From Escherichia coli (lineage in GTDB: Bacteria > Pseudomonadota > Gammaproteobacteria > Enterobacterales > Enterobacteriaceae): 64,000 nucleotides of DNA. A program made the position numbers. Below are positions 11,101 to 11,838 of the stretch, one piece after another. Positions within the stretch are counted from its first letter, which is position 1. Every line of letters starts with the position of its first letter. Location: NCBI RefSeq assembly GCF_051903065.1, contig NZ_CP178438.1; one strand, given 5' to 3'.

Positions 11101-11838
11101 AGGTGCTGGCGGCGCGCCAGCAGTTGCAGCGCGTGCAGGGAGCAACCAAAGCAAAAAAGAGTGAACCGGCAGCCGCTACCCGCGCGCGGCCGGTGAATAA
11201 CGCTGCGCTGGAAAGACTGGCTTCGGTCACCGATCGCGTTCAGGCGCGTCCGGTGCCATCGGCGCTGGAAAAAGCGCCAGCTAAAAAAGAAGCGTATCGC
11301 TGGAAGGCGACCACTCCAGTGATGCAGCAAAAAGAAGTGGTCGCCACACCGAAGGCGCTGAAAAAAGCGCTGGAACATGAAAAAACGCCGGAACTGGCGG
11401 CGAAGCTGGCGGCAGAAGCCATTGAGCGCGACGCGTGGGCGGCACAGGTGAGCCAACTTTCGCTACCAAAACTGGTCGAACAGGTGGCGTTAAATGCCTG
11501 GAAAGAGGAGAGCGACAACGCAGTATGTCTGCATTTGCGCTCCTCTCAGCGGCATTTGAACAACCGCGGTGCACAGCAAAAACTGGCTGAAGCGTTGAGC
11601 ATGTTAAAAGGTTCAACGGTTGAACTGACTATCGTTGAAGATGATAATCCCGCGGTGCGTACGCCGCTGGAGTGGCGTCAGGCGATATACGAAGAAAAAC
11701 TTGCGCAGGCGCGCGAGTCCATTATTGCGGATAATAATATTCAGACCCTGCGTCGATTCTTCGATGCGGAGCTGGATGAAGAAAGTATCCGCCCCATTTG
11801 ATCGTAAGCACAGCTTACGTTCGTCATCCTTAACGTGA

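What the first reader, a model, noticed from the sequence alone, without database searches (positions are those of the whole stretch)
11153..11195. dnaX programmed -1 ribosomal frameshift signal is intact
The A_AAA_AAG heptamer is in the correct phase, followed by a GC-rich stem-loop; the -1 frame terminates after one Glu codon (TGA at 11162-11164). This is the classic tau/gamma mechanism and a useful check that the window is read in the right frame.
Basis: established knowledge. Interest (0 to 1): 0.3.

Follow-up and report, generated by a model that had tools for sequence, protein, structure and literature searches.

The report
Textbook E. coli dnaX frameshift site
This is the well-known signal inside the E. 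coli dnaX gene that makes about half of the ribosomes slip back one base and stop early, so one gene yields both the tau and gamma subunits of DNA polymerase III; here it is letter-for-letter the same as in strain K-12, so it is ordinary.

Summary
dnaX is the 643-codon ORF 9870-11801 (+). A_AAA_AAG lies at 11153-11159 in the X_XXY_YYZ phase. The -1 frame reads GAG (11159-11161), then TGA (11162-11164), giving a 431-aa gamma ending ...KKE. An 11-bp G+C-rich hairpin (11165-11194, loop UACCC) starts 5-6 nt after the heptamer.

The region 11134-11198 scores 96.8 bits on Rfam RF00382 (gathering score 35). It is identical to K-12 MG1655 over all 65 nt. RefSeq annotates it as 'DnaX frameshifting element' in the E. 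coli records listed, and 5372 of 5423 complete E. coli genomes carry it at >=99% identity.

A cross-species test that did not specify any hairpin base recovered 77 Enterobacterales dnaX loci. In 55 of 56 distinct sequences a hairpin sits at the same position. The closing pair covaries (A-U in 28, G-C in 18).

Hairpin stability alone is not remarkable against shuffles (z = -1.9). The case rests on position, phase, conservation and covariation.

Verdict: already known, intact, no variant feature. Interest is very low.

The parts
9870..11801 (+). dnaX ORF, 0 frame: tau subunit of DNA polymerase III, 643 aa plus stop
   Evidence: ORF list. NCBIfam NF005942 'DNA polymerase III subunit gamma/tau', 981.5 bits, full length. 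13 nt differences and 1 aa difference (P522A) from K-12 MG1655.
9870..11164 (+). Gamma coding range: 0 frame up to the AAG at 11157-11159, then the -1 frame GAG TGA. Product is 431 aa ending ...KAKKE.
   Evidence: Computed product. The same end point as the joined gamma CDS YP_009518751.1 of K-12.
11134..11198 (+). Full match to the Rfam RF00382 DnaX ribosomal frameshifting element (model positions 1-65 of 65)
   Evidence: 96.8 bits against a gathering score of 35, E = 5.8e-20. Identical to K-12. Annotated as 'DnaX frameshifting element' in RefSeq E. coli records.
11137..11142 (+). Internal Shine-Dalgarno-like AGGGAG, the 5' stimulator, 10 nt upstream of the heptamer.
   Evidence: Sequence. 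Invariant part of the RF00382 consensus. Role as a stimulator, and the mutation AGGGAG->AUAUCA lowering frameshifting, described in PMC5389563 and PMC5009743.
11153..11159 (+). Slippery heptamer A_AAA_AAG, in X_XXY_YYZ phase
   Evidence: Phase computed; the only in-phase XXXYYYZ in the gene.
11159..11164 (+). -1 frame codons GAG (Glu) and TGA (stop) that end gamma
   Evidence: Translation of the -1 frame.
11160..11164 (+). Spacer AGUGA between heptamer and hairpin (5 nt, or 6 nt if the A-U closing pair is not counted)
   Evidence: Fold and the Rfam structure line.
11165..11194 (+). 3' stimulatory hairpin. Pairs are 11165-11170 with 11189-11194, 11172-11173 with 11186-11187, and 11174-11176 with 11182-11184. 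Loop is 11177-11181 (UACCC). A11171 and G11188 are unpaired, and C11185 is bulged.
   Evidence: MFE fold of -19.7 kcal/mol. The same pairs appear in the RF00382 consensus structure. The hairpin is present at the same position in 55 of 56 distinct Enterobacterales dnaX sequences. The closing pair is A-U in 28 and G-C in 18 of 48 sequences, and 85.4% of cells are paired against 28-53% when the partners are slid.

Best explanation
This is the programmed -1 ribosomal frameshift site of Escherichia coli dnaX, intact and identical to the K-12 element. Three signals act together. [quoted passage not shown] The tRNA-Lys molecules can then re-pair one base back, on A_AAA_AAG read as AAA_AAA. A large fraction of ribosomes (about 50% in vivo by the literature) continue in the -1 frame. 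They read GAG (Glu) and stop at TGA 11162-11164, which gives the 431-aa gamma subunit. The remaining ribosomes continue in frame and make the 643-aa tau subunit. Shown here: all sequence features, their phase and spacing, identity to K-12, family membership by covariance model, and conservation and covariation of the hairpin in related species. Inferred from published experiments on the identical K-12 sequence: that frameshifting actually occurs, its efficiency, and the roles of the three signals.
For: The host gene is DnaX. Rfam RF00382 matches at 96.8 bits over the whole 65-position model. The hairpin fold is -19.7 kcal/mol with the Rfam pairs. The 65 nt are identical to MG1655, and the K-12 gamma CDS ends at the equivalent of 11164. 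dnaX was found once in each of 5424 of 5426 complete E. coli genomes. The element is >=99% identical in 5372 of 5423 genomes and carries the RefSeq 'DnaX frameshifting element' feature. An independent cross-species test scanned genome contigs with AGGGAG-N10-AAAAAAGAGTGA, which specifies no hairpin base. It gave 77 loci in which the heptamer sits in phase in a DnaX ORF (66-95% aa identity). In 55 of 56 distinct downstream sequences a hairpin starts 5-6 nt after the heptamer, with MFE from -18.3 to -30.4 kcal/mol. Nine distinct non-dnaX sequences carrying the same 28-nt motif fold at only -1.6 to -12.5. There are compensatory changes: A-U/G-C at the closing pair (28/18) and one G-C->A-U in the lower stem. 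The covariation score is 0.123 against 0.060 +/- 0.008 in shuffles (0 of 500 shuffles reach it) and at most 0.049 when the partners are slid. For mechanism, PMC5389563 names the three signals and reports that in vitro efficiency falls when the hairpin is deleted, the SD is mutated or the heptamer is made non-slippery. PMC5009743 states that 50% of ribosomes shift to -1 and terminate one codon later.
Against: None of substance. The thermodynamic stability of the hairpin is only marginally better than shuffled G+C-rich sequence (z = -1.93; z = -0.73 in an 86-nt context). The lower stem is almost invariant, so most of its pairs carry no covariation information, and it lies in coding sequence, so part of the conservation could be at protein level. 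No expression data exist for this particular strain.
Confidence: 0.97

Rival explanations
1. Gamma is made by transcriptional slippage of RNA polymerase on the A run, as in Thermus thermophilus dnaX. The resulting mRNAs carry an extra or missing A and are translated normally into a truncated product.
For: The site contains a run of six A (11153-11158). PMC5009743 describes this route for Thermus dnaX.
Against: The same review states that slippage in bacteria occurs on runs of 9 A or T, and here there are only six. The conserved, correctly spaced SD-like element and hairpin have no role in that mechanism. The identical K-12 sequence frameshifts in purified translation systems on a defined mRNA (PMC5389563).
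Confidence: 0.01
2. Gamma arises by proteolytic cleavage of tau, as in Caulobacter crescentus, and the heptamer and hairpin are incidental.
For: PMC5009743 reports this route for Caulobacter.
Against: It does not explain the in-phase heptamer, the -1 stop after one codon, or the conserved stimulators with compensatory changes across Enterobacterales. Gamma of E. coli is annotated with, and reported to have, the -1 frame Glu at its C terminus.
Confidence: 0.01
3. The heptamer and a G+C-rich hairpin co-occur by chance, with no function.
For: AAAAAAG is common in the window (16 copies). G+C-rich shuffles fold nearly as well as the real sequence.
Against: E = 5.8e-20 against the curated covariance model. 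The 65 nt are identical to the experimentally characterised K-12 element. The element is >=99% identical in 5372 of 5423 E. coli genomes that hold it. The hairpin is kept at the same position with covariation in other genera, while unrelated sequences with the same 28-nt motif lack it.
Confidence: 0.005

Closest known systems
E. coli K-12 dnaX -1 programmed ribosomal frameshift element (Rfam RF00382; gamma CDS YP_009518751.1 of NC_000913.3)
   Same: Everything tested matches. The 65 nt from 11134 to 11198 are identical. The heptamer, phase, -1 Glu-stop, SD-like element at 10 nt, hairpin and gamma end point are all the same.
   Different: Nothing within the element. Elsewhere in the gene there are 13 substitutions, of which 12 are synonymous and one gives P522A in the tau-only C-terminal part.
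dnaX frameshift sites of other Enterobacterales (Citrobacter, Enterobacter, Kosakonia, Pantoea, Erwinia, Serratia and others)
   Same: The SD-like element, spacing, heptamer, AGUGA spacer with the -1 UGA, and the lower stem CCGGC/GCCGG are shared.
   Different: The hairpin apex differs in architecture. The E. coli/Citrobacter type has 5 bp with a bulged C and a 5-nt loop. The Enterobacter/Serratia/Buttiauxella type has GCGC/GCGC with an 8-nt loop. The Pantoea/Erwinia type has 4-5 bp with a 3-5-nt loop and a G-C closing pair in place of A-U. The window has the E. coli type.
E. coli copA -1 programmed frameshift (soluble Cu(I) chaperone)
   Same: It is a second -1 frameshift in the same window that ends the product one codon after the shift.
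   Different: It is in a different gene and on the other strand, and the heptamer is C_CCA_AAG. There is no Rfam match at gathering threshold. Its stimulators were not examined here.
Thermus thermophilus dnaX (transcriptional slippage) and Caulobacter dnaX (proteolysis)
   Same: The outcome is the same: a short gamma and a long tau from one gene (PMC5009743).
   Different: The mechanisms differ, and the window shows the ribosomal frameshift anatomy instead.

Membership tests
DnaX ribosomal frameshifting element (Rfam RF00382; E. coli-type dnaX -1 PRF) | [quoted passage not shown] | tested here: met
   NCBIfam NF005942, 981.5 bits (cutoff 613) over residues 1-643. The heptamer covers codons 429-430 of 643.
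DnaX ribosomal frameshifting element (Rfam RF00382; E. coli-type dnaX -1 PRF) | Slippery heptamer A_AAA_AAG in X_XXY_YYZ phase relative to the tau frame | tested here: met
   11153-11159, with codon offset 2. It is the only in-phase XXXYYYZ in the gene.
DnaX ribosomal frameshifting element (Rfam RF00382; E. coli-type dnaX -1 PRF) | -1 frame closes after one codon (Glu, then UGA), giving a 431-aa gamma | tested here: met
   The -1 translation reads ...KKE*. The end point matches the K-12 gamma CDS.
DnaX ribosomal frameshifting element (Rfam RF00382; E. coli-type dnaX -1 PRF) | Stable stem-loop 5-6 nt 3' of the heptamer | tested here: met
   11165-11194, -19.7 kcal/mol, with the same pairs as the Rfam consensus. 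It is conserved with compensatory changes in related genera. Stability against shuffles is only z = -1.93.
DnaX ribosomal frameshifting element (Rfam RF00382; E. coli-type dnaX -1 PRF) | Shine-Dalgarno-like sequence AGGGAG 10 nt 5' of the heptamer | tested here: met
   11137-11142, with ten bases (11143-11152) between it and the heptamer.
DnaX ribosomal frameshifting element (Rfam RF00382; E. coli-type dnaX -1 PRF) | Score above the curated gathering threshold of the covariance model | tested here: met
   96.8 bits against 35, over model positions 1-65 of 65, not truncated.
DnaX ribosomal frameshifting element (Rfam RF00382; E. coli-type dnaX -1 PRF) | Ribosomes actually shift at this site and produce gamma at roughly 1:1 with tau | not testable with these tools
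   Known only from experiments on the identical K-12 sequence (PMC5009743; PMC5389563).
DnaX ribosomal frameshifting element (Rfam RF00382; E. coli-type dnaX -1 PRF) | The host decodes AAA and AAG with a single tRNA-Lys (mnm5s2U34), which makes A_AAA_AAG especially shift-prone | not tested
   No tRNA scan was run on the window, and tRNA modification cannot be read from sequence. The property is stated for E. coli in PMC5009743.

The most novel reading that the evidence does not exclude
The site itself holds nothing new. The most novel reading the data leave open concerns the family, not this window. The apex of the dnaX hairpin has been remodelled into at least three discrete architectures among Enterobacterales, while the lower stem, spacer, heptamer and SD are frozen. 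One insect-associated lineage (Candidatus Pantoea persica, L055) appears to have deleted the 3' half of the hairpin. This could mean that the tau:gamma ratio is tuned by lineage, or relaxed in symbionts.
Probability: 0.25. Interest if true: 0.2.

Novelty: already known. Interest (0 to 1): 0.04.

Why it matters
It matters only as quality control. It confirms that the window is E. coli chromosome read in the right frame and that dnaX can make both clamp-loader subunits in this strain. The mechanism has been textbook knowledge since 1990 (my own knowledge; the review PMC5009743 covers the history), and the element is already annotated automatically in RefSeq.

Tried and rejected
(1) Hairpin stability as a stand-alone test. 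The z-scores were -1.93 for 41 nt and -0.73 for 86 nt. These are too weak in this G+C-rich stretch to prove anything, so I relied on the covariance model and comparative data instead.

(2) Heptamer frequency. AAAAAAG is about twice as frequent as expected in the window (16 against 8.4), so its mere presence is uninformative. Phase and context decide the question. The two other copies in dnaX (11283, 11361) are out of phase.

(3) RNAalifold on the 48-sequence alignment recovered only the lower stem and one upper pair. The apical stems are in different registers in different genera, so a single consensus structure for the apex is not appropriate. Per-sequence folds show the apex pairs.

(4) The 43 non-dnaX hits of the pattern scan were considered as possible further frameshift sites and rejected. 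At least 33 of them come from Collinsella, where AGGGAG-N5-GTG looks like an ordinary ribosome-binding site and start codon. None lies in a DnaX-like ORF and none has a comparable hairpin. They served as negative controls.

Nothing about a sequence identical to K-12 would be changed by them.

Full report
**Observation**

The window around the finding was read directly, and the ORFs were listed. A 643-codon ORF runs from ATG 9870 to TGA 11799-11801 on the + strand. Its codons start at positions divisible by three.

The string AAAAAAG occupies 11153-11159. Position 11153 is the last base of a GCA codon, so the 0 frame reads GCA AAA AAG AGT GAA (..A K K S E..) and the heptamer is phased A_AAA_AAG. 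The -1 frame across the same bases reads ..K K E stop, with GAG at 11159-11161 and TGA at 11162-11164.

A script confirmed that this is the only in-phase XXXYYYZ heptamer in the gene. The two other AAAAAAG copies in dnaX (11283, 11361) are phased AAA_AAA_G. The predicted frameshift product is 431 aa ending ...RVQGATKAKKE.

**Hairpin**

The result is one dominant structure of -19.7 kcal/mol, 65% of the ensemble:
- six pairs, 11165-11170 with 11189-11194;
- an A/G mismatch;
- two pairs;
- a bulged C;
- three pairs;
- the loop UACCC.

The spacer AGUGA is 5 nt, or 6 nt if the A-U closing pair is not counted.

The stability is not striking against dinucleotide-preserving shuffles. The z-score is -1.93, with 7 of 200 shuffles folding as well, and -0.73 in an 86-nt context. 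The heptamer alone is also common in the window, at 16 copies against 8.4 expected. Neither element by itself is more than chance would give. The combination is.

**Identification**

- The ORF product matches the NCBIfam equivalog NF005942, 'DNA polymerase III subunit gamma/tau', end to end at 981.5 bits against a cutoff of 613.
- A gathering-threshold scan of the whole window against Rfam 15 found RF00382, 'DnaX ribosomal frameshifting element', at 11134-11198. The score is 96.8 bits against a gathering score of 35, E = 5.8e-20, over all 65 model positions. Its structure line gives the same pairs as the free-energy fold.
- The model also covers a Shine-Dalgarno-like AGGGAG at 11137-11142, ten bases upstream of the heptamer.

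**Comparison with K-12 and other E. coli**

- The gene differs from MG1655 dnaX at 13 of 1932 bases. One amino acid differs, P522A, in the tau-only part.
- The 65-nt element is identical to MG1655.
- In NC_000913.3 the gamma subunit is annotated as a two-piece joined CDS of 1295 nt. That places its end at the base equivalent to window 11164.
- The gene occurs exactly once in each of 5424 of 5426 complete E. coli genomes.
- The element is >=99% identical in 5372 of the 5423 genomes that hold it. In the records listed it carries RefSeq's 'DnaX frameshifting element' feature.

**Independent comparative test**

I wanted evidence for the hairpin that does not depend on E. coli or on the Rfam seed. 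I scanned the species-representative genome collection for AGGGAG-N10-AAAAAAGAGTGA, which specifies no hairpin base. The scan returned 120 loci.

- In 77 loci the heptamer sits in phase in an ORF that matches the window's DnaX at 66-95% amino-acid identity. The genera include Citrobacter, Enterobacter, Kosakonia, Pluralibacter, Buttiauxella, Serratia, Pantoea, Erwinia and Mixta.
- The other 43 loci do not match DnaX. Most are one Collinsella gene start.
- Among 56 distinct dnaX downstream sequences, 55 fold into a hairpin that begins 5-6 nt after the heptamer, with MFE from -18.3 to -30.4 kcal/mol.
- The nine distinct non-dnaX sequences with the same 28-nt motif fold at only -1.6 to -12.5 kcal/mol, and their structures are unrelated.

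On a 48-sequence alignment I counted pairs for the E. coli structure:
- 85.4% of cells are paired, against 28-53% when the 3' partners are slid by 1-3 columns.
- The closing pair is A-U in 28 sequences and G-C in 18.
- One lower-stem pair shows a G-C to A-U change.
- The covariation score is 0.123 against 0.060 +/- 0.008 in shuffles, and 0 of 500 shuffles reach the observed value.

The lower stem CCGGC/GCCGG is otherwise nearly invariant, so it says little about covariation. The apex exists in at least three architectures, which is why RNAalifold recovers only the lower stem. The window has the E. coli/Citrobacter architecture.

**Mechanism**

All anatomy, spacing, phase and conservation are shown here. 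The rest is taken from published work on the identical K-12 sequence:
- roughly half of the ribosomes shift to -1 at this site and terminate one codon later;
- the hairpin acts as a roadblock to EF-G-driven translocation;
- the SD:anti-SD pairing and the hairpin together promote repeated futile EF-G binding;
- efficiency falls when the hairpin is deleted, the SD is mutated or the heptamer is made non-slippery.

The sources are PMC5009743 and PMC5389563.

The alternative routes to gamma described for other bacteria do not fit this anatomy. Transcriptional slippage occurs on runs of nine A or T in Thermus, and Caulobacter uses proteolysis of tau. Here the A run has six bases, and the conserved stimulators would have no role in either route.

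**Verdict**

This is the textbook dnaX -1 programmed frameshift site. It is intact, identical to the reference strain and already annotated in public records. It is a sound frame check for the window and nothing more.

**Seen in passing**

- The window corresponds to the acrB-qmcA region of the E. coli chromosome.
- It holds a second known programmed -1 frameshift, in copA. The heptamer C_CCA_AAG is at 28850-28844 on the - strand, is in phase, and is followed by Gly and a stop in the -1 frame.
- About 25.8 kb at 31567-57350, between ybaT and cueR, are absent from K-12. They encode a TolC-like protein, an uninterrupted 6925-codon BapA/SiiE-like adhesin ORF, a type I secretion ABC transporter split into two overlapping ORFs, and a HlyD-like adaptor.
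- A further 4.6 kb at 57857-62494, between cueR and ybbJ, include a gene with a YadA-like anchor domain.
- The closest complete genome found, strain 23CRST027, is 99.98% identical over 30001-59706. It carries an additional IS903B that the window lacks.

Noticed in passing
window 28844-28850 (- strand); copA ORF starts at 29050 (-): A second programmed -1 frameshift site lies in the same window. The copA heptamer C_CCA_AAG is in X_XXY_YYZ phase, and the -1 frame reads GGC TAA, giving a 70-aa product (MSQ...SHPKG). This corresponds to the joined CDS 'soluble Cu(+) chaperone' YP_009518752.1 in K-12. There are 5 nt differences from K-12 in the first 330 nt. No Rfam family matched here at gathering threshold.
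   Followed up: partly
window 31567-57350: About 25.8 kb between ybaT and cueR are absent from K-12 MG1655. They encode a TolC/OEP protein (31877-33232), a 6925-codon uninterrupted BapA_N/Big_13/FG-GAP/RTX adhesin ORF (33335-54112; annotated 'BapA-related adhesin SiiEA, frameshifted' in the nearest strain 23CRST027), an ABC transporter and a HlyD adaptor (56274-57449). The adhesin gene contains diverged internal repeats offset by about 1.8 kb (73-76% identity).
   Followed up: partly
window 54116-55873 and 55519-56277 (+): The type I secretion ABC permease/ATPase of the island is split into two overlapping ORFs in different frames. One holds the transmembrane domain and the other the nucleotide-binding domain. 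It is annotated as frameshifted in the nearest RefSeq strain. The secretion system may therefore be defective although the giant adhesin ORF is open here. The position and nature of the frameshift were not examined.
   Followed up: no
window 57857-62494: A second stretch of about 4.6 kb between cueR and ybbJ has no K-12 counterpart. It has three ORFs without Pfam hits (57854-59083 -, 59369-59791 -, 62027-62389 +) and a 600-codon ORF with a YadA_anchor domain (59876-61678 -). That ORF contains two 346-bp direct repeats (60649-60994 and 61018-61363, 94% identical). In strain 23CRST027 an IS903B interrupts the equivalent of the 59369-59791 ORF, and the window lacks that IS.
   Followed up: partly
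window 19121-19198, 26256-26333, 26357-26434: Three matches to Rfam naRNA4 (REP/BIME-type palindromic repeats). The last two are identical copies 101 bp apart between ybaQ and copA, and they score on both strands. K-12 has the same tandem pair.
   Followed up: no
window 24875-24958 (+): Rfam sroB at 82.1 bits, which is the small regulatory RNA ChiX annotated at the equivalent K-12 position between ybaK and ybaP.
   Followed up: no
window 15598-15652: The adk-hemH intergenic region differs from K-12. About 53 bp here replace about 157 bp in MG1655, and the megablast alignment breaks at this point.
   Followed up: no
window 11433 (dnaX codon 522): The only amino-acid difference from K-12 DnaX is P522A (G here, C in K-12), in the tau-specific C-terminal region. 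The other 12 substitutions are synonymous.
   Followed up: no
window 11283-11289 and 11361-11367: Two more AAAAAAG strings lie in the tau-only part of dnaX. Both are phased AAA_AAA_G, so they are not canonical -1 sites.
   Followed up: yes
L055 (Candidatus Pantoea persica), match at 3006-3033 (-): In this insect-associated Pantoea the SD, heptamer and -1 UGA are intact. The 3' half of the canonical hairpin appears to be deleted relative to other Pantoea (GCCGGCAGCGTCGGCTAACTCC against GCCGGCAGCGCCAGGTGCGCGGCCGGCCAACTCC). It is the only one of 56 distinct dnaX sequences without the standard hairpin.
   Followed up: partly
L005, L006, L015 and at least 30 further Collinsella loci: The 28-nt motif AGGGAG-N10-AAAAAAGAGTGA recurs in many Collinsella species at what looks like a gene start (AGGGAG-AATCT-GTG CCA AAA AAG AGT GAG...). 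The flanking ORF does not match DnaX, and there is no comparable downstream hairpin (-7.4 kcal/mol). It was treated as a chance match conserved within one genus.
   Followed up: partly
E. coli genome collection: Two of the 5424 dnaX matches lie on records labelled as plasmids, and 2 of 5426 complete genomes gave no dnaX match. These are probably labelling or assembly oddities.
   Followed up: no
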